A stretch of 25,033 nt of DNA. It comes from a bacterium (lineage in GTDB: Bacteria; UBA6262; WVXT01). The translations under genes and the position numbers were made by a program. Below, in pieces: positions 1,158 to 12,674 of this stretch (position 1 is the stretch's first letter; the number at the start of each line of letters is the position of its first letter). The notes under the pieces were generated by a model. That model was not told the origin of the DNA. It ran no database searches and saw only the letters and a list, made by a program, of their open reading frames with translations. The stretch spans positions 1-25,033 of the forward strand of contig JBHIBS010000023.1 of the NCBI GenBank assembly GCA_046759165.1, in the 5' to 3' direction.

Positions 1158-3782
1158 CTACATGTTCCTTTTGTATCTCTTCATTAATAGCGAATTGCTA
1201 ACTACAGAAACAGAGCTAAAAGACATGGCTGCGCCAGCAATAATAGGATTCAATAGAAACCCAGTAAACGGATAGAGCAACCCCGCTGCCACAGGAATGC
1301 CCACACTATTGTAGAAGAATGCCCAGAATAGATTCTGTCTTATCTTCTTCATTGTGTATCTTGATAAGTCCATAGACATTACCACATCTCTAAGATCGTC
1401 TTTAATGAGTACTATGTCCCCAGATTCAATGGCGACATCGGTGCCCGTGCCAATGGCAATACCAATGTCAGCCTGAGTAAGCGCAGGAGCATCGTTTATG
1501 CCATCACCAACCATGGCCACCTTCAAACCTTGCTGTTGAAGTTTCTTTATCTCGTTAGCTTTATCTTGTGGTAAAACCTCTGCTAAAACTTCCTTTATAC
1601 CCAATTGCCTGGCTATGGCTTCACCTGTCCTTCTGTTATCTCCTGTTATCATAACAACTTCTTTGCCAAATTCCTTGAGTGTCTTAATTGCCTGTTTTGC
1701 ATTTTCTTTTAAAGTATCAGCCACAGCCACTATTCCCATAACTGAATTGTCTACGGCGACAATCATCGCAGTTTTACCCTGTGTTTCTAAGTCCAAAAGA
1801 AACTTATCTACTTTTGACAAATCTATACTTCTCTCCCGCATCAATTTACTATTTCCTAATAGAATCATTCTATTCTGGTATTTCGCGCTAACCCCTCTTC
1901 CAGTTATAGAATCAAAAGCTTCTGGTTCAGGGATATCTATTCCTTTTGCTTTTGCCCCCTCAATTATTGCTTCCCCCAGGGGGTGCTCGGAATTCTTTTC
2001 TGCTATTGCCGCAAATCTCAACACATCGTTTTCACTCATCGTATCCAGCTTGATGACATCAGTTAATTCCGGCTTACCCTTAGTCAGAGTTCCGGTTTTG
2101 TCAAATATAATTGTATTTATATTACGAGCCAATTGAAGTGATTGAGCACTCCTAATCAAAATCCCATTCTGCGCCCCAATACCAGTTCCTACCATAACCG
2201 CTGTGGGCGTCGCTAAACCCAAAGCACAGGGACAGGCAATAATCAAGACAGCGATAGCGATAGTCAAGGCAAACACAAATCCCTGTCCAACCAGAAGCCA
2301 CATGGTAAAGGCAATTATTCCAATTAAAACTACTGCAGGAACAAAATAAGCAGAAATCTTATCTGCCAATTCTTGAATAGGGGCTTTGGAGCCCTGCGCT
2401 TCCTCAACAAGTCTTATGATCTGGGCTAAAGCTGTATCTTTGCCAACTTTTGTGGCTACAAACCTAAAAGAACCTGTCTTGTTAATTGTGGCGCCAATAA
2501 CTTCATTGCCTGGTGTCTTCTCCACCGGAATGGACTCGCCACTAATCATTGATTCATCTACACTGGAATGCCCATCAACTACTTTTCCATCTACAGGGAT
2601 TTTCTGTCCCGGCTTCATCAGAACAACATCACCAACAATGACTTCCTCTATTGGAATCTCTTTCTCCTGCTCATTCCTGATGACAATGGCAGTCTTGGCC
2701 TGCAACCCCAAAAGTTTCTTGATGGCTTCCGAAGTCTTTCCCTTGGCAATGGCTTCCAGCCACTTTCCCAAGAGGATGAACGCGATAAGAATCCCGGCTA
2801 CTTCATAATATAGATTTTCTATTCCGTATTTGGGACTACCCGACCATATCGCTATAGACACAAAAAGACTATAAACATATGCTGCACCCGTTCCCAGAGC
2901 CACTAAAGTATCCATATTGGCAGTTCTGGTTTTGATAACTGAACTAAAACCCTTAGTATAAAATTGGTAGCCTGCCATTATGATAGGAGTTGTAAGAAGA
3001 AATTGGATGAGAGCCATATTCCTTAGAATAGAATCCGAAAGCGACAAACCCAGGTGGGGTGCCATAGCAAAATATAGAAGTGGTATACCCAAACTTAACG
3101 AAATCCAAAACTTAATCTTCAGGCTTCTAATTTCTCTATGTCGTGCTTCTTTTTCGATATCGGGTGTAACTTCTTTCTCCTCAATTGGTGTATACCCTGC
3201 AGCTTTAATTGTTTCTTTTATTCTATCCTTAGTTAACAAAGAGGTATCAAATTGGATTTTTGCTCGCTCATTGACATAGAGTTCTTGCTTTGTAATTCCT
3301 TTAAGGCTATTTAATGCCCCTTTCACAGTGCTCAAACAATGGGGATTATCCATGCCAATAACTTTTAGGTTGAGCGTTGAGATTATCCCTCCCTCTCTTA
3401 TTGGCTTATATCCGGCCCTGGAAATAGCTTCTTCCATCTTCTCTCTTGTGACTTTGTTAGGGTCATACTCAATATGTGCCTTCTCAGAAACGAAATTTAC
3501 TTTCGCATCCGATACGCCATCAACCTTCTTTAAAGAATTTTCTATCGTAATCACGCAGGATGAACAATGCATGCCTGTAATCCCGATTGTCGTCTTTTCT
3601 TTTTTCTTTGAGGCAGCTTCAGTTTTTGATTCTGAAACTGGTTCCTCTTTCTCCACACCTAAAAATTTATCTCGACAAAGAGGACTACAGAAAAAATATT
3701 GTTTACCGTCTTTCTCTACCTTAATCGCTTTTTTCTCATCAACTTCCATTTTACAGATCGGGTCTATCGCCACCTTAATCAC
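1158..3782 (-). CDS. copA: Copper-translocating P1B-type ATPase with N-terminal YHS and two HMA domains
   Basis: DPIC...FCS YHS domain, GMHCSSC HMA, SGES, CPC, DKTGT phosphorylation site, [15 protein letters not shown] and M-x3-S Cu(I) motifs. Confidence 0.95.
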
Positions 3783-3791
3783 CTCATTCGC

Positions 3792-5246
3792 TTATACCAC
3801 TTCCTTAACTTTGCGCGTCCCCTTCTTTCTTACTCTTATATTCCTTGGTTTTGGATATTCACCAGTCCAGCAATAGAGACACAGCTTCTCCTTGGGGAGC
3901 CCAATGGCCTTGACCATGGCATCCACAGTCTGGTATCTAAGTGTGGTAACTTCTAAATCGTTAGCAATCCATTCCACCATCTTTTTGTATTCTTTAGAAT
4001 TATGGTCTACATATTTTGCCACATTCTCTAAATCTCTGCCTTCCAGGCTGCGAATGGCTCTTCGGGCAGCGAGTTCATGGATGCTCCGCGTGGAGAGATT
4101 AAACCTGCATGGAAACATCAAGGGCGGGCAGGCGGGCCTTATGTGAACCTCTCTGGCCCCGCTGTCCCACAACTTCTTTATGGTGAAGTTCCTAAGCTGA
4201 GTTCCCCTGACTATAGAGTCCTCGCATACTACAATCCTGTTGTCTTCAACTATCTCTCTGACAGGAATGAGCTTCATCTTGGCTATCAAATCTCGGGTCT
4301 CCTGCGAAGGAGGAGTATAGCTCCTCCCATATCCAGGCGTATACTTCACAAGAGGTCGCCTGTAAGGCTTCCCGGACTCCATGGCATATCCCACAGCGTG
4401 TGCGGTTCCTGAATCGGGAACCCCAGAGACTACATCTACTTCTATATCTCTGTCCCGTTTTGCCAGAAACCTTCCGCATCTCTCCCTCACTGTCTCCACA
4501 TTTATCCCCTCATAGCTTGAAGCGGGAAAGCCGGTATATATCCAGAGGAATGCGCAGATTTGATTCATATCCCCGCCTGGCTTCTTCTGCGCCAGGCCCT
4601 CCTCATTTATCAGAACTATCTCCCCGGGCTCGAAGTATTTCACTGCTTCGAACCCAATATTTGGGAACGCACTAGTCTCAGAAGTAACTGCCCAGGCATC
4701 CTGTCGCTTTCCAACTACGAGAGGGGTATATCCATACCTATCTCTGGCGGCATAGACTCCATCTTTGTTCAGCAATAAAAGTGAGCAGGAACCATCTATT
4801 GCATCGAACATCTTCTCTATACCCTCTATCAAATTGTTCCCCTGGCTGATCAACTTGGCTACGAGCTCAGTTACATTAACCACACCTTTGCTCACTTCAC
4901 TGAAGGATATTCCTTTTTCCAACAGCCCTCCCACTAATTCTTCGATATTTTCTAAGAGTCCATTGGTGACTATACAAAACGGACCGAACTTGGAGTTTAA
5001 ATAAATAGGCTGTTCATCAAAGGCGCTAATAACGCCAATACCCTTGTTGCCCTTCATACGCTTGAAATCTTGATAGAATTTTGACTTAAACTGATTCTGG
5101 CTTATGTCATGTATCTGGCGGGTGAAATCCTCTCCCAGCACTGCCATGCCCCCATATTCTGTCCCCAAATGCGAATGATAATCCGTTCCACAGAATAGAA
5201 TTTCTGCACAATCTCCCTTAGAAACTACTCCAAAAATCCCGCTCAT
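3792..5246 (-). CDS. purF: Amidophosphoribosyltransferase-like protein lacking the N-terminal catalytic Cys
   Basis: VPDSG, EDSIVRGT PRPP loop, four Fe-S-type Cys (ICAF, FPCRF, CLYC); N-terminus is MSGIFG instead of MCGIFG. Confidence 0.85.
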   Translation of the reverse strand: MSGIFGVVSKGDCAEILFCGTDYHSHLGTEYGGMAVLGEDFTRQIHDISQNQFKSKFYQDFKRMKGNKGIGVISAFDEQPIYLNSKFGPFCIVTNGLLENIEELVGGLLEKGISFSEVSKGVVNVTELVAKLISQGNNLIEGIEKMFDAIDGSCSLLLLNKDGVYAARDRYGYTPLVVGKRQDAWAVTSETSAFPNIGFEAVKYFEPGEIVLINEEGLAQKKPGGDMNQICAFLWIYTGFPASSYEGINVETVRERCGRFLAKRDRDIEVDVVSGVPDSGTAHAVGYAMESGKPYRRPLVKYTPGYGRSYTPPSQETRDLIAKMKLIPVREIVEDNRIVVCEDSIVRGTQLRNFTIKKLWDSGAREVHIRPACPPLMFPCRFNLSTRSIHELAARRAIRSLEGRDLENVAKYVDHNSKEYKKMVEWIANDLEVTTLRYQTVDAMVKAIGLPKEKLCLYCWTGEYPKPRNIRVRKKGTRKVKEVV

Positions 5247-5317
5247 CTTTTACCTCTGTTATATTTAGTTTCAAATTCTAAAACAATCAAAATCTGAAAT
5301 TTGTAATGTGTAATTTA

Positions 5318-8300
5318 CTATTTCACTTGTTTATGGTATTCCTGTAATGATTTCACAAAGGTCTTTGGTCTCTTAATCAAATTCTCGATTCCATTAACAG
5401 ATGCCTGTGCACCAGCAATAGTAGTTATGAGAGGTACACTATAAAGAATTGCATGGGATCTTATCTTTGCCTCATCCTCTCTGGTCACCTTGCCAGCAGG
5501 AGTGTTTATTATAAGATCTACCTTACCATCTTTTATTAAATCGATTATGTTAGGTCTCCCTTCGTGAAGTTTAGGCAAAGTTTCTACCTCTATGTCATTC
5601 CTCATAAGGGCGGCTGCTGTACCAGAAGTTGCCATAATTTTAAACCCAAGGTCAGTAAGTTTCTTGGCAATGAACATTATACTCCTCTTATCCTGGTTCT
5701 TCACACTTATAAATACATTCCCCTTTTTTGGCAACCTTTGTCCAGCAGCTATCTGGCTCTTCCCATAAGCTACACCAAATGTGGAATCTATTCCCATAAC
5801 CTCCCCCGTGGATTTCATCTCCGGCCCCAAGATTGCATCTACGCCTGGAAACCTTATGAAAGGAAATACAGACTCTTTTACTGCAACATGATCTATCTCC
5901 TTTTCCTTGGTAAATTCTAACTCTTGCAGGGTCTTTCCAAGCATTATCCTAGTTGATAGCTTTGCCAGAGGAACCCCTATTGCCTTGCTCACAAATGGAA
6001 TCGTTCTACTTGCCCTGGGATTTACCTCCAGGACATAGACCACATTATTCTTGATGGCGTACTGGATATTCAAAAGTCCCTTCACATTCAATTCCTTTGC
6101 CATAGCATAAGTATTTTTCTTTATAACTTCTATTATATCTTCACCTAAGGTATAGGGCGGAAGGACCATTGCACTATCACCAGAATGGATCCCTGCTTCT
6201 TCAATGTGCTCCATAACCCCACCTATCACGCACCTCTTGCCATCTGCTATTGCATCCACATCAACTTCTATAGCATCTTCTAAGAATTTGTCGATAAGAA
6301 TTGGATGTTCAGGAGATGCCTCTACTGCTTTTTTCATAAAATTGCTTAAGCCTTCCTCATCATAGACTATCTCCATTGCTCTACCACCCAGAACATAAGA
6401 AGGTCTTACCACCACTGGATATCCTATCCTGTTTGCAACCTTCTTTGCTCCTTCGAATGAGGTAGCTGTCCCGTTATCAGGCTGGATGAGTTTCAATTTC
6501 TTAAGCATCTGTTGAAATCTTTTTCTATCCTCTGCCCTGTCTATAGAATCAGGGCTTGTTCCTAAAATCTTCACTCCTGCTTTGGCCAATGGGACAGATA
6601 TATTTAGAGGAGTCTGGCCTCCAAATTGAACTATCACCCCGATGGGTTTTTCAATATCCACAATATTTAATATATCCTCAACTGTCAAAGGTTCAAAATA
6701 CAATTTGTCTGAAGTGTCATAATCTGTCGAAACAGTCTCTGGATTGCAATTTACCATAATGCTTTCAATGCCCTCTTCCTTTAAAGCATACGATGCATGA
6801 CAACAACAGTAATCAAACTCTATGCCCTGCCCGATTCTATTGGGTCCCCCTCCAAGGATAAGAACCTTCCTATTCCCGGATGGCTGGCTTTCATCCCTGG
6901 TCTCATATGTAGAATAGTAATATGGTCTCTCCGCTTTAAATTCTCCTCCGCAGGTATCTACCAATTTATAAACTCCTTTTATATTGCACCTTTTTCTATA
7001 GAATCTTACCTTTTTCTCCGTCGAATTTAGAAGATAGGCAAGCTGCATATCTGAGAAGCCGTACTTTTTCGCTTTCCTAAGCAACTCTGGTGGGATTTCA
7101 ATTTTATATTTTGCATTTTTACTTCTATATCTCTTTATCTTTTTTTCCAGTTCTATGATCTGTTTCATATTGTCTATAAACCACCTATCAATTTTTGATA
7201 ACTCATAAATCTCATCAACCGTTAGTCCAAGCTTGAGACCATATCTGATGAAAAATAGCCTCTCATCATTGGGAATTCTTATTTTTTCCTTTATTTCCTC
7301 AATCAAATCTTCTGACGTTGATCTTAATGCTCCATCCGTGATTCTGTCTTTTCCGTCTGAACCCAATCCAAATCTCCCTGTCTCAGTAGACCTTATTCCC
7401 TTCTGGAGGGCCTCCTTAAAGCTTCTACCAATAGACATTGCCTCACCAACTGCTTTCATAGATGTATTTATGACCCTTTGAACTTGAGGAAATTTTTCAA
7501 AAGTAAATCTACAGATTTTAAATACGCAGTAATCAACTGTAGGCTCAAAGAATGATGTTGTCTTTCCTGTAATCTGATTGAGAATCTCTGGAAGAGTTAA
7601 GCCAACAGCCAATTTTGTAGCAACCCTGGCAATGGGGAAACCGGTAGCTTTAGAAGCTAAAGCTGAACTTCTTGAAAGTCTTGGATTGACTTCGATAATC
7701 ACAATGTGTCCATTATCCGGGTTTTGGGCAAATTGAATATTCGCACCTCCTCCCGTTATGCCAATCTTTCTTATAATCTTTTTGGATAGATTCACAAACT
7801 GTGCGTATTCATCTCCAGTAACGCTCTGGGATGGTGCAACCACAATGCTATCACCAGTATGTACACCCATTGGGTCCACATTCTCCATAGAAGTAATCAT
7901 AATAACATTGTCAACGTAGTCCCTCATCACCTCATACTCTATCTCTTTCCACCCCAATACAGATTGTTCCACCAATACTTGTCCCACCGGGCTTATCTCA
8001 AGGCCCTTTATTAGAAACTCCTCCAATTCCTCTTTATTATAAGCAGTAGAACCACCGCTCCCACCCAAACAATACGCTGGCCTCAAAATCAACGGAAACC
8101 CTATCTCAAGGCCTATCCTCATGCCCTGTTCCAAATTTGTAGCAATTCCACTTTTGGGGACATCTATCCCTATTTCTTGCATTGCCTTCTTAAATAGCTC
8201 TCTATCTTCAGCCCTTGAAATAGCCCCAACATTGGCTCCTATAGACTCTACACCATACTTTTCCAGTACACCTTCTTTCATTAAAAAATAGGCCAGATTC

Positions 8301-8587
8301 AAGCCCGTCTGGCCGCCCAGTGTGGGCAGAATGGCATCGGGTCTCTCCTTCTTTATTATCTCCGTAACCGCTTCTACTGTGAGTGGCTCAATGTATGTCA
8401 CATCTGCCATACCAGGATCTGTCATAATAGTAGCTGGATTGCTATTTACAAGGATTGTAAAGTAACCTTCTTCTCTTAAAGCCTTACAGGCTTGAGAACC
8501 AGAATAGTCAAATTCACAGGCCTGGCCAATAACAATAGGGCCGGAGCCTATCATCAATATCTTATTTATATCTTTGCGCTTTGGCAT
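5318..8587 (-). CDS. carB: Carbamoyl-phosphate synthase large subunit
   Basis: 1089 aa, [17 protein letters not shown], two ATP-grasp halves (HTGDS/EVNPR and [14 protein letters not shown]), C-terminal MGS-like domain. Confidence 0.98.
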
Positions 8588-8609
8588 GCTGCATCCCCTT
8601 TTTCAATGA

Positions 8610-8648
8610 GCACATCACCCTACACCCAGTGTGCTGGGTGATAAGTGC
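8610..8648. repeat. carA-carB intergenic inverted repeat
   Basis: CACCCAG-tgtg-CTGGGTG (8623-8640) with an alternative arm ATCACCC (8614-8620) able to pair with GGGTGAT (8636-8642). Confidence 0.5.
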
Positions 8649-8652
8649 GGGG

Positions 8653-9741
8653 TCATTTGATTCCTGAAAATCTTCTAAATACTTCGTTTACCTCCTCAAA
8701 CCCAGGACTTACCGGATAGTACTGGGTGGAAATAAACCTTAAAGGGCCACTTTCCATCTCCTCAATTGAGTCATCATTAACATTTCGCAGGGTAATGTTA
8801 ATATCATTTCTACCCTTTATTGAGTTCTCATCCACAATAAATGAATGGTTCTGAACAGTGATATCCCCCTTATATGAAGAAGGTGACTTCACTGGATAGT
8901 TTACACCGTGATGACCTACTTTGAGTTTTCTTAGTCTGCCTCCTAAGGCAAGACAGATAATTTCATGTCCTAAGGAAATACCTAAGAGAGGAATTTTGCC
9001 CACGAGCCTCTTAACTAACTCCACAATTTTAGAAATTGCTTCATCTTCTTCTGGTCCACTGGAAATGATCAAGCCATCAGGATTCAATCCAAGAATCTTA
9101 TCTCTATTAGTATTATAGGGTAATAACGTAATATTGCATCCCAGACTCTTTAATTGTTTGAGAAAACTATTCAAGATCCCAAGGTCTAATATAACTATCT
9201 TTGGTCCTGAAGGATTACCTTTAATTTCTGTAGTCCTTTTTACAGAGATATTTCTTATAAAGTCCTTTCTCATGTCTTTTTTATAATTTTTTAACCTGTT
9301 AAGTAAGTGACTAATCTTTGCCTCCTTGCACTCGAGCGGCACTATGGTCGAAACTATTCCTAACATCTGTCCTCTATCTCGAATCTTGACAGCCAATGTC
9401 CTTGTATCGACCTCGCTTATAGCAACAAGGTGTTCCTTCTTAAGGAAATTGTTAAAACTGTCCTCTGCCTGCCAATTGGAATACATTTTACTTCCCTCTT
9501 CTATAATCAAGGCCTCTATCCAACATTTTTTGGAATCATAAAATTTTTTGGCTACACCGTAATTACCTATCAAGGGATAGGTGAAAACCAGGATTTTGCC
9601 CGCATTTGCCGGGTCGGTCATAATCTCCTGGTATCCAACAACCGCAGTATTCAAAACCACCTCTCCTATCCTTTCTCCGGCTACCCCTATTGGGACGCCC
9701 TCAAAGTAGCTACCATCCTCTAACACTAATATTCCTCTCAT
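8653..9741 (-). CDS. carA: Carbamoyl-phosphate synthase small subunit, glutaminase-dead variant
   Basis: GEVVLNT..GYQE..TDP, TYPLIGNYG, VDTRTL, GHHG.NYPV, QNH; nucleophile motif GISLGHE, C-terminal QYYPV. Start moved to ATG 9741 (MRGILVLEDG, GGGAG RBS); ORF track begins at 9765. Confidence 0.92.
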   Translation of the reverse strand: MRGILVLEDGSYFEGVPIGVAGERIGEVVLNTAVVGYQEIMTDPANAGKILVFTYPLIGNYGVAKKFYDSKKCWIEALIIEEGSKMYSNWQAEDSFNNFLKKEHLVAISEVDTRTLAVKIRDRGQMLGIVSTIVPLECKEAKISHLLNRLKNYKKDMRKDFIRNISVKRTTEIKGNPSGPKIVILDLGILNSFLKQLKSLGCNITLLPYNTNRDKILGLNPDGLIISSGPEEDEAISKIVELVKRLVGKIPLLGISLGHEIICLALGGRLRKLKVGHHGVNYPVKSPSSYKGDITVQNHSFIVDENSIKGRNDINITLRNVNDDSIEEMESGPLRFISTQYYPVSPGFEEVNEVFRRFSGIK

Positions 9742-9793
9742 AATCTTCTCCCATTGATATTCCATTCTTGCCCAACCAGCTACCCTATATTTT

Positions 9794-9822
9794 ATTATAC
9801 CATAATATTCAAATATATTTAA
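9794..9822 (-). promoter_or_regulatory. Extended -10 promoter for carA-carB-purF-copA
   Basis: Minus strand TG-G-TATAAT at 9802-9794; weak -35 (TTAAAT) 17 nt upstream. Confidence 0.55.
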
Positions 9823-10130: not shown

Positions 10131-11003
10131 TCAGAAAGGCTCACTGAGCAAACCATATAGTTCCGGTCGGCGGTCTCTAAAGACGGGCGAGACGGCTCTC
10201 ATCTCAAGCAGGTGGTCATTACTAAATTCCGCAAAAAGAACTTCTTCTTCCCCCTCCTTCTCTGCATAGGCAAGAATCTCTCCGTCAGGTCCGGCTATGG
10301 CACTATGCCCATCGAAATCATGCCGACTATATTTGCCCACTGGATTGCATGCCATTGCGTAGACCCTGTTTGATATTGCATGCATCATCGAGAAGCATCG
10401 GAAGCGAGTGGGTATATAGGTCACTCTCTTGTGAGGAGAGGTTGGCTTTCCCCATGAATAATTGGAGCAAAGAATTTCCATGCCTTTCAAAGCCAATATT
10501 CGTGGTAGTTCGGGAAATAGGTTATCCCAGCACACGGTCATTCCGATGTTACCGATCTCCGTATGGTAAACTTCCAATGTATTACCTGGGTAGAAGTAGT
10601 GTTTTTCCTCATCAGGAATATGCAATTTGTGATGGATGCCCAGTATCTCTCCTCGAGGCCCGATCAACACTGATGAATTGTATATGGTGCCTGGTATCCG
10701 AGGATGAAGCTGAGCTAATCCCACCACAATGTGAGTTTGGTGTTTTTTAGCCAGCTTAGCGACAATATTGGTGGTATAGCCGGGAATCGGCTCTGCACAC
10801 TTCAGGAACTCCCGGCCGAAATCCTGGTCCATCGGCTGGACGTATCCCGTGTTGGCAAGTTCGGGAAAGAGTATCAGGTCTGCCGCCCGGTTATCAAAAA
10901 TATTCTCAATAAATTCCTTGATTTTAGAGGCGTTCTTCTTTGGCTGTAGACTGGCCACCTCCATTTGAACCAAGGATGTTTTAACTTTATCTTTCATTTC
11001 CAT
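10131..11003 (-). CDS. Carbon-nitrogen hydrolase (nitrilase superfamily)
   Basis: Glu-Lys-Cys triad motifs FPEL, HKLHIP, VCWD; C-terminal RDRRPELY. Confidence 0.9.
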   Translation of the reverse strand: MEMKDKVKTSLVQMEVASLQPKKNASKIKEFIENIFDNRAADLILFPELANTGYVQPMDQDFGREFLKCAEPIPGYTTNIVAKLAKKHQTHIVVGLAQLHPRIPGTIYNSSVLIGPRGEILGIHHKLHIPDEEKHYFYPGNTLEVYHTEIGNIGMTVCWDNLFPELPRILALKGMEILCSNYSWGKPTSPHKRVTYIPTRFRCFSMMHAISNRVYAMACNPVGKYSRHDFDGHSAIAGPDGEILAYAEKEGEEEVLFAEFSNDHLLEMRAVSPVFRDRRPELYGLLSEPF

Positions 11004-11010
11004 TACCTCT

Positions 11011-11919
11011 CTATTTCTGCTTGTGTTTGGCTAAATATCTGAAGGCACTAAGTGCCGCTTTAGCCCCTTCACCGGCTGCTACTATAATCTGTTTTTCAGC
11101 CACATCAGTAACATCACCTGCGGCAAAGATGGCCGGCATATTGGTCTCGTTGTGACAGTTTACCTTGATTTCACCCAGTTCATTCTTTTCTAACTGTTTA
11201 GCAAATTCAGAATTAGGAATAAGACCGATTTCTACAAAAACTCCTTGCACAGCCAGCGTTTCTTCCCTTTCTTGTCTTTTTATCTTAATTCCACTTACCA
11301 TCCTATCTCCAAGGACAGCGGTTACCCGTGTGCTGTTTAAGATAGAGACCTTTTTACTCTCACTGACTTTTCCCCTCATTATCGCATCTCCAGTGAGGGC
11401 TGAGGTGATATTGATAAGATAGATATGTTTGGCTATCTTTATCAATTGTAGCGCTGCATCCAAAGCAGAGTTCCCTCCACCAATAACTGCCACATCCTTT
11501 CCAGCAAATAAAGGACCATCGCAAGTAGCACAGTAAGTGAGGCCTCTATTTTTAAATCCTTTTTCCCCCGGCACACCAAGTTCCCTTGACCTCTTGCCAG
11601 AGGCAACTACCGCTGTTTTCGCTTCGTAGGTACCTTTGTCAGTCTTAACCCAGACTCCGTCGTCTTTTCTTCTGAGTTCTATTACTTCTTCATTCTCTCT
11701 TAACTCGATGCCATATTTTTGCATATGCTCCTCAAACTTACCTGCCAGCTCAGGGCCGGTGATGAACTGATAGCCAGTGTAATTCTCTATGTCTCCACTC
11801 AATGCCGCCTGCCCCCCGATATCTTTGGTAATAACTAAAAGGTTCATTTTCTTTCTGGCAGCGTAGACGCTGGCTGTTATACCTGCTGGTCCTGCCCCTA
11901 CAATAATTAAATCGAACAT
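11011..11919 (-). CDS. trxB: Thioredoxin-disulfide reductase (TrxB/AhpF C-terminal-like)
   Basis: GAGPAG FAD motif, CATC active site, GGGNSA NAD(P)H motif, FAAGD. Confidence 0.9.
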   Translation of the reverse strand: MFDLIIVGAGPAGITASVYAARKKMNLLVITKDIGGQAALSGDIENYTGYQFITGPELAGKFEEHMQKYGIELRENEEVIELRRKDDGVWVKTDKGTYEAKTAVVASGKRSRELGVPGEKGFKNRGLTYCATCDGPLFAGKDVAVIGGGNSALDAALQLIKIAKHIYLINITSALTGDAIMRGKVSESKKVSILNSTRVTAVLGDRMVSGIKIKRQEREETLAVQGVFVEIGLIPNSEFAKQLEKNELGEIKVNCHNETNMPAIFAAGDVTDVAEKQIIVAAGEGAKAALSAFRYLAKHKQK

Positions 11920-11941
11920 TTTCCTATTATCTCTAATGGGG

Positions 11942-12181
11942 TTATAACCCCAATGCCTTTCTTATCCTCTCTTTGTCAAAACCCACTATAATTTCGCCTT
12001 CAATATCTATTACAGGCACAGCCATTTGCGCCGATTTCTGAACCATCTCTTGGGCTTTTTCCCGGTCACTAGAGACATCGATATCCTCAAAATCAATCTT
12101 GTTGTCCCTTAGGAAATTCTTGGCCATCATGCAAAACGGGCAAGTGGGGGTACTGTAGACTATGACTTTTTTGTCCACCAT
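11942..12181 (-). CDS. Glutaredoxin-like protein (NrdH/YruB type)
   Basis: CPFC active site, VPVI cis-Pro motif, IVGFD; ATG 12181 preceded by GAGGTG. Confidence 0.9.
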   Translation of the reverse strand: MVDKKVIVYSTPTCPFCMMAKNFLRDNKIDFEDIDVSSDREKAQEMVQKSAQMAVPVIDIEGEIIVGFDKERIRKALGL

Positions 12182-12197
12182 AGTCACCTCTTTTAGA

Positions 12198-12674
12198 TTA
12201 CAGGGTCTCCTTTAAATCGAACAACTGTCTTAGATGGTTTTGCTCTTCTAAAATAAGCTGATTAACTATTTTGTGGTCATATTCTGGCACTACCTTCTTC
12301 ATCCCTTCATAGAAAAGGATCGAATCTTTCTCAAATCCTATACCGAGATCGATAGCTTCTTTATCGCTTCTTATTCTTTTGGCTATTTCCTCGCCTTTAT
12401 CCTTCTGGGTAAATACATAGGCCCTTGCCAGCGCATTCATATATGCAAAATATTCCCCGGGATACGACTCTGGCGGTACATATTTGTGCACCGAATCTAA
12501 TATCTTTTGAAAAACAGTTATGTGTTTTTCTTCTTCGCCTGCCAAATATTTGAACGTGTCTTTAGCTTTTTGATTTTTTGATTGCTTAGCCAACGTGTTG
12601 TAGAAATCTCTACCATTCTTTTCAATTTGAATTCCCAATTCCACTATTTCGCTTCCTGCAAATATGTTTACCAT
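12198..12674 (-). CDS. Ferritin-like (rubrerythrin-family) diiron protein without rubredoxin domain
   Basis: Paired E...EEKH and E...EEQNH diiron motifs; AAGGAGG RBS. Confidence 0.85.
   Translation of the reverse strand: MVNIFAGSEIVELGIQIEKNGRDFYNTLAKQSKNQKAKDTFKYLAGEEEKHITVFQKILDSVHKYVPPESYPGEYFAYMNALARAYVFTQKDKGEEIAKRIRSDKEAIDLGIGFEKDSILFYEGMKKVVPEYDHKIVNQLILEEQNHLRQLFDLKETL

What the first reader, a model, noticed from the sequence alone, without database searches (positions are those of the whole stretch)
3792..5246. PurF-like protein without glutamine site but with Fe-S ligands and PRPP loop
Seen: starts M-S-G-I-F-G (AGC at 5243-5241) with no propeptide; QHRGQ->SHLGT; the H-x-R-Y-x-T glutamine-binding motif is replaced by GVISAF; HNGNL->TNGLL. 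PRPP loop CEDSIVRGTQ, the flexible loop and four Cys matching B. subtilis-type [4Fe-4S] ligands remain. Inference: ammonia-dependent phosphoribosylamine synthase, or a PRPP/nucleotide-sensing partner of CPS. Some Ntn hydrolases use an N-terminal Ser, so a different amide substrate cannot be excluded.
Basis: partly seen in the sequence, partly recalled or inferred. Interest (0 to 1): 0.7.

Follow-up and report, generated by a model that had tools for sequence, protein, structure and literature searches.

The report
Cysteine-less PurF, probably ammonia-using
This gene encodes a well-conserved copy of the first purine-synthesis enzyme that has lost its glutamine-splitting site but kept its sugar-phosphate site, so it most likely makes the first purine intermediate directly from free ammonia.

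Summary
ORF 3792-5246(-) encodes a 484-aa PurF homologue that starts Met-Ser. An in-frame stop 6 nt upstream rules out a propeptide. The Cys nucleophile and the Arg and Asp glutamine ligands are gone. The PRPP loop, the flexible loop and four Cys at the Fe-S ligand positions remain.

It scores 221 bits on TIGR01134 (cut-off 350), and a true purF (558 bits) lies on another contig. It belongs to a monophyletic Cys-less clade. In 44 aligned members position 2 is S, G, T, N, A, D, K or deleted, and the oxyanion Asn is kept in only 12. PRTase and Fe-S residues are kept in 42-44.

Gene context supports phosphoribosylamine synthesis:
- 19 of 80 related loci read purF-purM-purF'.
- A closed Omnitrophota chromosome has no canonical purF but carries a copy in a purB-purL-purF'-purM-purD-purE string.
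- Five genomes of a sister genus have purD but only this form.

Linkage to carB is lineage-specific (6 of 80 loci), so a CPS-partner role is not a family trait. Here the adjacent CarA has also lost its Cys-His-Glu triad.

No biochemistry was found in six literature searches. A 2011 paper proposed the same idea for crenarchaeal PurF'. This scan has met the family many times on other DNA.

The parts
3792..5246 (-). purF' coding sequence: 484-aa Cys-less PurF paralogue
   Evidence: TIGR01134 221.5 bits vs cut-off 350; PDB 1ao0 E 1e-57; AF2 model pLDDT 94.5, TM 0.81/0.86 to 1ao0_A
5250..5257 (-). Shine-Dalgarno-like AGAGG (5257-5253) and in-frame TAA (5252-5250) just upstream of the ATG
   Evidence: read directly; excludes a propeptide or an upstream start
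5241..5243 (-). AGC = Ser2 at the position of the PurF Cys1 nucleophile
4572..5246 (-). N-terminal Ntn-type domain (about residues 1-225) with a dismantled glutamine site: DYHSHLGT 5160-5183, shortened loop GIGVISAFDEQP 5007-5042, TNGLL 4953-4967
   Evidence: Pfam GATase_7 residues 75-194; domain conservation 0.51 vs 0.54 for the C-domain
3849..4571 (-). Type I phosphoribosyltransferase domain (about residues 226-466): SGVPDSG 4407-4427, flexible loop 4293-4334, PRPP loop VVCEDSIVRGTQ 4197-4232
   Evidence: D343, S344, R347, Q350, R308 and R318 kept in 43-44 of 44 clade rows
4554..4556 (-). Cys231, predicted [4Fe-4S] ligand 1
   Evidence: aligned to the Cys of B. subtilis PurF; 44 of 44 in the clade
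4107..4109 (-). Cys380, predicted [4Fe-4S] ligand 2
   Evidence: invariant in the 77-row alignment; 44 of 44
3870..3881 (-). Cys456-x-x-Cys459, predicted [4Fe-4S] ligands 3 and 4
   Evidence: 42 and 43 of 44
5318..8587 (-). carB, full-length carbamoyl-phosphate synthase large subunit; it ends 71 nt upstream of purF'
   Evidence: NF003671 1627 bits, TIGR01369 1489 bits
8653..9765 (-). carA' small-subunit paralogue without the Cys-His-Glu triad (GISLGHE 8962-8982; QYYPVS 8707-8724)
   Evidence: TIGR01368 337.7 bits vs cut-off 307; sequence; canonical CarA on contig C3 has GICLGHQ and QFHPEA
1158..3782 (-). P1B-type copper ATPase (YHS + HMA domains). It starts 9-18 nt after the purF' stop and is probably co-transcribed. 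It is not part of the enzyme's function as far as shown.
   Evidence: no terminator-like site between carA' and this gene; terminator-like sites at 10005-9992(-) and 1107-1093(-)

Best explanation
The gene encodes a glutaminase-dead, Fe-S-type PRPP amidotransferase (PurF'). It binds PRPP in an intact type I phosphoribosyltransferase site and forms 5-phosphoribosylamine with free ammonia as the nucleophile, without hydrolysing glutamine. The N-terminal Ntn-fold domain is kept as a structural part of the enzyme. In PurF this domain closes over the PRTase site and builds the oligomer (recalled). It is not catalytic here. In this organism the gene sits in an operon with a triad-less CarA' and a full-length CarB. 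The operon therefore looks like a glutamine-independent (ammonia-fed) entry into purine and pyrimidine/arginine synthesis, running alongside the glutamine-dependent carA and purF on another contig. Shown: the sequence features, the fold, the family-wide conservation pattern and the gene contexts. Inferred: the reaction, the nitrogen donor, the presence of the Fe-S cluster and co-transcription.
For: 1. Loss of the glutamine site. Ser2 replaces Cys1, and the Arg and Asp ligands and the R-Y-x-T loop are gone. In 44 clade rows position 2 is S 22, G 11, T 4, gap 3, and N, A, D, K one each. The oxyanion Asn is kept in 12 of 44.
2. PRTase site and Cys ligands kept. D343 43, S344 44, R347 43, Q350 43, R308 43, R318 44, C231 44, C380 44, C456 42 and C459 43, all of 44.
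3. PurF fold. The model has pLDDT 94.5 and TM 0.81/0.86 to B. subtilis PurF.
4. Purine context. 19 of 80 loci carry a second PurF-family ORF upstream on the same strand. 16 of these show Cys plus QHRGQ by pattern. purM lies between the two in 18 (TIGR00878 422 bits).
5. The purF slot. The closed chromosome G073 has no match over the TIGR01134 cut-off. It carries a clade member in a purB-purL-purF'-purM-purD-purE string. That copy groups with the window protein in a 12-row clade, SH-aLRT 99.
6. Sole PurF-family enzyme. 0 of 5 genomes of sister genus g4 (83-96% complete) have a match over the cut-off, while purD is found in 9 of 9 and purM in 8 of 9 genomes of the family. Among 80 genomes with PurF', 11 lack canonical purF. 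purD is over its cut-off in 8 of the 10 of these that were tested.
7. Ammonia theme. The adjacent CarA' lacks its triad. The same five g4 genomes also lack a canonical-scoring carA. In other loci purF' sits beside carB without carA and beside DUF1846. DUF1846 is PyrJ, an experimentally shown ammonia-only CTP synthase (bioRxiv 10.1101/2024.09.24.614635, passages read).
8. The N-domain is under selection: mean conservation is 0.51, against 0.54 for the C-domain.
Against: No enzyme of this clade has been assayed, and none was found in six literature searches. 69 of 80 genomes with PurF' also keep canonical purF, so the protein is usually not a replacement and could have a distinct role. The five g4 genomes lack canonical purF and canonical carA together. 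In G000, G002 and G004 these two genes lie about 10 kb apart on one contig. The five absences may therefore be a single loss event, or one unassembled segment, rather than five independent cases. All these genomes except G073 are metagenome bins. Clade-specific conserved residues (D22, Y23, F53, S74, N124, Q350) have no explanation under simple loss of function. The pyrJ link is absent from this genome's own family (0 of 9).
Confidence: 0.66

Rival explanations
1. A non-catalytic or regulatory subunit (pseudoenzyme) that co-assembles with canonical PurF and tunes its activity or feedback inhibition.
For: It co-occurs with canonical purF in 69 of 80 genomes and lies in the same gene string in 19 of 80 loci. 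PurF is an oligomer (recalled), so mixed oligomers are conceivable. The N-domain is conserved as strongly as the C-domain.
Against: PRTase catalytic and PRPP-binding residues are kept in 43-44 of 44, which a pure regulator would not need. It is the only PurF-family protein in 11 of 80 genomes and in 5 of 6 genomes of genus g4. It takes the purF slot in G073, which has no canonical partner.
Confidence: 0.1
2. A phosphoribosyltransferase with a different acceptor or nitrogen donor. The remodelled N-domain (DYHSHLGT, shortened loop) would bind or receive something other than glutamine, for example carbamate or carbamoyl phosphate from CPS, or ammonia handed over by a partner amidase. The product might not be phosphoribosylamine.
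For: Clade-specific conserved residues lie in the former glutamine region (D22, Y23, F53, S74, N124), and RGTQ replaces RGTT in the PRPP loop. The gene is linked to carB in 6 of 80 loci. A C-N hydrolase gene lies upstream here and in L007.
Against: The strongest contexts are purine operons in which the next enzyme is PurD. The carB link is lineage-specific. No partner is conserved across the 80 loci; after purM, the most frequent neighbour is an unannotated 346-aa ORF in 16 loci.
Confidence: 0.1
3. A PRPP- or nucleotide-sensing partner of carbamoyl-phosphate synthase.
For: Operon carA'-carB-purF' here, with only 71 nt between carB and purF'. The same order is found in L006 and L007, and carB lies near purF' in L016, L020, L035 and L055.
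Against: 74 of 80 loci have no carB within the DNA held. The family occurs in purine operons. The catalytic PRTase residues are conserved.
Confidence: 0.05
4. An Ntn amidohydrolase that uses the exposed N-terminal Ser as nucleophile on an amide other than glutamine, still feeding ammonia to the PRTase site.
For: Met-Ser would expose Ser after Met removal, and some Ntn hydrolases use Ser or Thr (established knowledge). Ser follows the initial Met in all 75 close paralogues read from the loci. In the 77-row alignment one close relative starts M-N-G instead (P0057).
Against: In the wider monophyletic clade position 2 is Gly in 11, deleted in 3, and N, A, D or K in 4 of 44. The oxyanion Asn is kept in only 12 of 44. 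Brown et al. 2011 state that PurF and AsnB lose function when this Cys is changed to Ala or Ser (passage read).
Confidence: 0.03

Closest known systems
Glutamine PRPP amidotransferase PurF, [4Fe-4S] type (B. subtilis, PDB 1ao0/1gph; TIGR01134; EC 2.4.2.14)
   Same: Two-domain architecture and fold (TM 0.81-0.86), about 31% identity, PRPP loop, PPi loop, flexible loop and four Cys at the cluster-ligand columns. Purine-operon context in relatives.
   Different: No Cys1 and no propeptide. The Arg and Asp glutamine ligands are lost. The glutamine loop is about 8 residues shorter. RGTQ replaces RGTT. It scores 221 bits against a cut-off of 350. It forms a separate clade from canonical PurF.
PurF' of Crenarchaeota (Brown et al. 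2011, Biol Direct 6:63, PMC3261824; passages read)
   Same: A second PurF-like gene that lacks the N-terminal Cys and lies near purF and other purine genes. The authors proposed an ammonia-dependent phosphoribosylpyrophosphate aminotransferase and did not test it.
   Different: The archaeal proteins are reported to carry Ala or Val, not Ser. Whether they belong to the same clade or are an independent loss was not tested here, because I could not obtain a crenarchaeal sequence. The sister Cys-less groups that I did find carry names from DPANN and Asgard archaea, Patescibacteria and Margulisbacteria.
PyrJ (DUF1846/UPF0371), ammonia-only CTP synthase of Streptococcus pneumoniae (bioRxiv 10.1101/2024.09.24.614635; passages read)
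   Same: An ammonia-using alternative to a glutamine amidotransferase of nucleotide synthesis. It often coexists with the canonical enzyme and sometimes replaces it. It is encoded next to purF' in 4 of 80 loci (L035, L055, L013, L039) and present in a fifth (L057).
   Different: An unrelated fold and a different reaction. Not found in this genome or its family (0 of 9).
Short-loop, Cys-containing PurF homologues (for example P0167, P0183, P0224)
   Same: They share the shortened glutamine loop. They branch at the base of the superclade that contains the Cys-less forms (70 rows, SH-aLRT 99).
   Different: They keep Cys1 and QHRGQ, so they may still use glutamine. They are uncharacterised as far as I saw.

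Membership tests
PurF, glutamine PRPP amidotransferase (TIGR01134 equivalog) | N-terminal Cys nucleophile exposed after removal of Met or a propeptide | tested here: not met
   Met-Ser start with an in-frame TAA 6 nt upstream. Ser2 aligns with Cys1 of 1ao0.
PurF, glutamine PRPP amidotransferase (TIGR01134 equivalog) | Glutamine-binding residues: Arg of the R-Y-x-T loop, Asp of D-T/S-E, Arg of QHRGQ (roles recalled from E. coli and B. subtilis structures) | tested here: not met
   GVISAF, Val and SHLGT stand at these columns.
PurF, glutamine PRPP amidotransferase (TIGR01134 equivalog) | Oxyanion-hole Asn-Gly (HNGNL) | tested here: inconclusive
   N95-G96 are present in this protein (TNGLL), but Asn is kept in only 12 of 44 clade members.
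PurF, glutamine PRPP amidotransferase (TIGR01134 equivalog) | Family HMM score at or above the curated cut-off (350 bits) | tested here: not met
   221.5 bits. The true purF of the same genome scores 557.6.
PurF, glutamine PRPP amidotransferase (TIGR01134 equivalog) | Type I PRTase PRPP loop, PPi loop and flexible loop | tested here: met
   VVCEDSIVRGTQ, SGVPDSG and GYGRSYTPPSQETR, conserved in 43-44 of 44.
PurF, glutamine PRPP amidotransferase (TIGR01134 equivalog) | Two-domain PurF fold | tested here: met
   AF2 pLDDT 94.5. Foldseek 1ao0_A E 2.3e-41, TM 0.81/0.86.
PurF, glutamine PRPP amidotransferase (TIGR01134 equivalog) | Four Cys ligands of the [4Fe-4S] cluster (B. subtilis type) | tested here: met
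   C231, C380, C456 and C459 align with the Cys of 1ao0 and are kept in at least 90% of 77 rows. Actual cluster binding cannot be tested here.
PurF, glutamine PRPP amidotransferase (TIGR01134 equivalog) | Formation of 5-phosphoribosylamine from PRPP | not testable with these tools
   Only inferred, from operon position and from sole-copy genomes.
PurF' (Cys-less PurF paralogue; Brown et al. 2011) | PurF homologue without the N-terminal Cys, present beside a true PurF in the genome | tested here: met
PurF' (Cys-less PurF paralogue; Brown et al. 2011) | Clustering with purF and other purine genes | tested here: inconclusive
   Not in this window, where the neighbours are carA', carB and copA. 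Met in 19 of 80 related loci and in G073.
PurF' (Cys-less PurF paralogue; Brown et al. 2011) | Phylogenetic membership in the crenarchaeal PurF' cluster | not tested
   No crenarchaeal sequence was obtained. The profile search with sister groups listed none by name.
Ntn hydrolases with a Ser/Thr nucleophile | Conserved N-terminal nucleophile and oxyanion hole | tested here: not met
   Position 2 is S 22, G 11, T 4, gap 3 and others 4 of 44. Asn95 is kept in 12 of 44.

The most novel reading that the evidence does not exclude
Some anaerobic lineages run the entry steps of both purine and pyrimidine/arginine synthesis without glutamine, on free ammonia. They would use a dedicated set of glutaminase-dead enzymes: PurF', a triad-less CarA' with CarB, and elsewhere PyrJ. 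The five sister-genus genomes here have only PurF' and only CarA'. The conserved, remodelled N-domain of PurF' (DYHSHLGT) would then not be an inert relic. It would be a gate or docking site that captures ammonia, possibly handed over by a partner such as CPS or the upstream C-N hydrolase.
Probability: 0.15. Interest if true: 0.75.

Novelty: new variant of a known kind. Interest (0 to 1): 0.5.

Why it matters
PurF is textbook as the glutamine-dependent committed step of purine synthesis. A large, conserved Cys-less clade is labelled simply 'amidophosphoribosyltransferase' in databases. It occurs in Planctomycetota, Omnitrophota, Elusimicrobia, Clostridia bins and Muribaculaceae of the Bacteroidales. 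If it makes phosphoribosylamine from ammonia, three things follow:
- Metabolic reconstructions of many uncultured anaerobes and gut bacteria mis-state their nitrogen and ATP budget.
- PurF joins CTP synthase (PyrG/PyrJ) and CPS as a step with an ammonia-only alternative.
- The 2011 PurF' hypothesis becomes directly testable in bacteria.

This window adds a case where PurF' is co-encoded with a triad-less CarA' and CarB, and where close relatives have no glutamine-dependent versions of either enzyme.

Tried and rejected
1. CPS-partner idea. tblastn with the window's CarA and CarB against 80 loci found carB in 6 and carA in 2. Rejected as a family trait.
2. Ser-nucleophile idea. Rejected on clade variation at position 2.
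3. 'Extraordinary conservation means a special constraint.' Across phyla PurF' is 78.6% identical, against 54.3% for canonical PurF (G000 vs 16 planctomycete loci). Within Planctomycetota the two are equal (81.8 vs 81.5%, 120 pairs). Lateral transfer is the simpler reading (inference).
4. Riboswitch or leader. No Rfam match at gathering score anywhere in the window. Promoter and terminator scans were near shuffle expectation.
5. Expression. No RNA holder was listed for 3700-9800. No reads were laid.
6. Relation to crenarchaeal PurF'. A profile of 12 sister Cys-less sequences (A2) returned 307 proteins at E<=1e-20. None of the 120 listed bore a crenarchaeal name. Cluster look-ups gave few names. 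Left open.
7. Literature. Six searches found only Brown et al. 2011 for PurF' and the PyrJ preprint.
8. Geometry of the ammonia path. Model coordinates are not exposed to scripts, so this was not done.
9. Complex prediction was not used. I claim no specific binding, and a PurF-like homodimer would pass by likeness to solved structures.
10. The conserved 346-aa ORF downstream of purF' in 16 planctomycete loci has no family match above cut-off.
Full report
**Observation.** ORF 3792-5246 on the minus strand encodes 484 residues beginning MSGIFGVV. The start ATG is at 5246-5244 and the Ser codon AGC at 5243-5241. AGAGG lies at 5257-5253. An in-frame TAA at 5252-5250 excludes any longer N-terminus or propeptide. 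Pfam sees only GATase_7. NCBIfam TIGR01134 (purF) scores 221.5 bits against a cut-off of 350. The best solved relative is B. subtilis PurF (1ao0, E 1e-57).

- Ser2 stands at the Cys1 column.
- DYHSHLGT stands for ..LQHRGQ.
- A loop about 8 residues shorter, GIGVISAFDEQP, replaces GIGHVRYSTTG...NxQP.
- TNGLL replaces HNGNL.
- Val stands at the Asp of D-T/S-E.
- SGVPDSG, GYGRSYTPPSQETR, VVCEDSIVRGTQ and the four Cys (231, 380, 456, 459) are kept.

The roles of these residues in glutamine binding and cluster ligation are recalled from the E. coli and B. subtilis PurF literature, not from a call. An AlphaFold2 model is confident (pLDDT 94.5) and superposes on PurF structures (1ao0_A TM 0.81/0.86).

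**It is a paralogue, not the organism's PurF.** The assembly (1.885 Mb, 165 contigs, 92% complete) has a canonical purF on contig C3 (557.6 bits). That gene has a propeptide ending in Cys and carries QHRGQ, HVRYSTTG and HNGNL. The two proteins are 36% identical.

**The family.** A word-indexed search returned only close relatives among its best 120. They are 78-97% identical and, where named, are called amidophosphoribosyltransferase. The named bins are Planctomycetota, Omnitrophota, Elusimicrobia, NPL-UPA2 and Clostridia/Firmicutes. The genome collection gave 216 confirmed relatives, of which 80 loci were kept at 73-89% identity. An exhaustive search of the 50%-clustered library gave 1105 proteins at E<=1e-30, with a continuous series from 68% down to about 33% identity. 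One representative's cluster holds a Muribaculaceae protein.

A quick IQ-TREE of 80 rows (SH-aLRT only) gave this picture:
- Canonical long-loop PurF is separated (99) from a short-loop superclade of 70 rows (99).
- At the base of that superclade sit Cys-containing short-loop forms.
- Inside it lies a Cys-less group of 58 rows (94).
- Inside that lies a DYHSHLG clade of 46 rows (100), which holds the window protein.

Counts over the 44 clade rows present in the alignment:

| Group | Position | Kept (of 44) |
|---|---|---|
| Glutaminase site | Position 2 | S 22, G 11, T 4, deleted 3, N/A/D/K 1 each |
| Glutaminase site | Asn95 (oxyanion) | 12 |
| PRTase site | D343 | 43 |
| PRTase site | S344 | 44 |
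| PRTase site | R347 | 43 |
| PRTase site | Q350 | 43 |
| PRTase site | R308 | 43 |
| PRTase site | R318 | 44 |
| Fe-S ligands | C231 | 44 |
| Fe-S ligands | C380 | 44 |
| Fe-S ligands | C456 | 42 |
| Fe-S ligands | C459 | 43 |

The glutaminase positions drift freely while the PRTase site and the cluster ligands are held. The N-domain as a whole is nevertheless as conserved as the C-domain (0.51 vs 0.54; canonical 0.55 vs 0.56). It is therefore retained for a reason, most simply structural.

**Gene context elsewhere.** I called ORFs in the 80 loci and clustered them. In 19 of the 80 loci a second PurF-family ORF lies upstream on the same strand. 16 of these show Cys plus QHRGQ by pattern, 2 are cut by the contig end and 1 was not matched by my pattern. 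In 18 loci purM (TIGR00878, 422 bits) lies between the two genes.

Scoring TIGR01134 over the 80 genomes, 69 have a canonical purF over the cut-off and 11 do not. Of the 10 canonical-less genomes that I tested, 8 have purD over its cut-off. The eleventh, G095, was not tested.

One of the canonical-less genomes is a closed 1.82-Mb Omnitrophota chromosome, G073. It has two sub-cut-off matches (208 and 192 bits). The second is a 462-aa clade member (MSGIFGAIS...DYHSHLGT) with all four Cys. It lies in the string purB-purL-purF'-purM-purD-purE (gene names are my reading of the translations, apart from purD, which one search scored at 565.6 bits). This is the slot that purF holds in classical pur operons (recalled). 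The copy groups with the window protein at SH-aLRT 99.

**The window's own family.** Among 9 genomes of the same family, genus g4 has PurF' in 6 of 6. Five of these (83-96% complete) have no match over the purF cut-off (0 of 5). purD is present in 9 of 9 and purM in 8 of 9 genomes of the family. G004 has a second PurF-family ORF (36% identical to PurF') that I did not score against the model.

The same five genomes have only the low-scoring CarA type (347-354 bits). G000, G001, G002 and G004 also have a canonical-scoring carA (525-538 bits). In G000, G002 and G004 canonical carA and purF lie about 10 kb apart on one contig. The joint absence may therefore be a single event, or in principle one segment that failed to assemble or bin five times. 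It should not be counted as five independent losses.

**The operon here.** The order on the minus strand is carA' (9765-8653), carB (8587-5318, full length, 1627 bits), purF' (5246-3792) and a P1B copper ATPase (from 3782 or 3773 to 1158). The gaps are 65, 71 and 9-18 nt. No terminator-like site lies between these genes, and there is one on each side (10005-9992 and 1107-1093). Such scans are weak evidence.

The CarA here reads GISLGHE and QYYPVS, where the canonical CarA of contig C3 reads GICLGHQ and QFHPEA. All three residues of the class I triad are replaced. The role of the triad is recalled, as is the fact that vertebrate ammonia-dependent CPS I carries a similar Cys-to-Ser change. L006 shows the same two motifs. 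The operon therefore joins two enzymes that have each lost their glutaminase nucleophile.

In L035 and L055 purF' follows carB, with no carA detected in the locus at E 1e-20. A DUF1846 gene lies between carB and purF' (556 bits for L055). In L013 and L039 DUF1846 lies just downstream on the other strand. I read the relevant passages of the preprint 10.1101/2024.09.24.614635. Purified Spd_0310 (DUF1846) converts UTP to CTP with ammonia but not with glutamine, and about 31% of genomes with pyrJ lack pyrG. pyrJ is not found in this genome's family (0 of 9).

**Best explanation and rivals.** The most economical reading is an ammonia-dependent phosphoribosylamine synthase (confidence 0.66). Evidence against this reading:
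- There is no assay for any member.
- It coexists with canonical purF in 69 of 80 genomes.
- The sole-copy cases within g4 are not independent.
- Almost all the genomes are metagenome bins.
- Clade-specific conserved residues (D22, Y23, F53, S74, N124, Q350) remain unexplained.

How the rivals fare:
- A regulatory pseudo-subunit fits the coexistence with purF. It does not fit the conserved catalytic residues or the genomes without a partner.
- A new donor or acceptor is not excluded but has no positive support beyond the conserved new residues.
- The CPS-partner idea rests on a lineage-specific adjacency (6 of 80 loci).
- The Ser-nucleophile idea fails on clade variation.

**Evolution.** Between this genome and 16 planctomycete loci PurF' is 78.6% identical, while canonical PurF is 54.3%. 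Within the planctomycetes the two evolve alike (81.8 vs 81.5%). I infer lateral spread of purF' rather than an unusually slow clock.

**Comparison with what is known.** Brown et al. 2011 (PMC3261824; passages read) described PurF' in Crenarchaeota. It lacks the N-terminal Cys, often carries Ala or Val, lies close to purF and purine genes, and was proposed but not tested as ammonia-dependent. I could not place those sequences in my tree. Six full-text searches found no characterisation of the bacterial clade.

This scan has reported the same family on other DNA many times, with the same reading. Those notes are not independent evidence. The one lead I took from them, PyrJ, I checked myself.

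**Verdict.** This is a real and well-conserved feature. It is a new variant of a known enzyme kind, with a published but untested precedent in archaea. What this window adds is the pairing with a triad-less CarA' plus CarB in one operon, and close relatives that appear to have no glutamine-dependent PurF or CarA at all.

Noticed in passing
window 8653-9765 (-): The CarA small subunit upstream of carB has lost the whole class I amidotransferase triad. It reads GISLGHE for GICLGHQ and QYYPVS for QFHPEA, yet scores just above the TIGR01368 cut-off (337.7 vs 307). A canonical carA (537.9 bits) lies on contig C3. Five genomes of the sister genus have only the triad-less type.
   Followed up: partly
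G000 contig C3:21040-23773 (loci L089, L093): The canonical carA is followed by a carB-like ORF of only about 555 aa, which matches positions 1-553 of the 1052-position TIGR01369 model. No second half was found at E<=1e-30 apart from the full-length carB in the window. This may be a half-size or split large subunit.
   Followed up: no
window 1158-3782 (-): A P1B copper-exporting ATPase with an N-terminal YHS domain and an HMA domain starts 9-18 nt after the purF' stop, with GAGGTG before the GTG at 3773. It is apparently co-transcribed with an Fe-S enzyme gene. The reason for the linkage is unknown, and it was not seen in the other loci examined.
   Followed up: no
window 10131-11003 (-); L007:1475-2344: A C-N hydrolase (nitrilase-superfamily amidase; N-carbamoylputrescine-amidase model 151.8 bits, far below its cut-off of 410) lies just upstream of carA'. 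The same neighbour, 85% identical, is kept in L007. An ammonia-releasing enzyme next to ammonia-using ones may be more than coincidence.
   Followed up: no
window 11011-12674 (-): A redox cluster typical of anaerobes: a thioredoxin-reductase/AhpF-like flavoprotein (302 aa), a YruB-type glutaredoxin-like protein (81 aa) and a rubrerythrin (158 aa).
   Followed up: no
L035:6430-7947, L055:6410-7966, L013:9630-11231(-), L039:9542-11152(-), L088:5461-6978: DUF1846 (PyrJ, ammonia-only CTP synthase) genes lie directly beside purF' or a distant Cys-less PurF-like gene. In L035 and L055 they sit between carB (no carA found in the locus) and purF'. The L088 ORF was judged by eye only and was not scanned.
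   Followed up: partly
L080:7172-8212 and 15 other planctomycete loci: A conserved 346-aa ORF lies downstream of purF' on the same strand in 16 loci, with no NCBIfam match. The only Pfam match is sub-threshold (GT-C_AftD, 18 bits).
   Followed up: partly
proteins P0167, P0183, P0193, P0221, P0224, P0234, P0265, P0269: A set of PurF homologues of 435-480 aa keep Cys1 and mostly QHRGQ, but share the shortened glutamine loop of the Cys-less forms and branch at the base of their superclade. They may be an intermediate, still glutamine-using type.
   Followed up: partly
G073 (closed chromosome), C1:1256406-1257794 and C1:275796-277172: Two PurF' copies occur in one genome with no canonical purF. 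One is in the pur operon (64% identical to its nearest close relative, P0078). The other is 78% identical to the window protein and lies elsewhere.
   Followed up: partly
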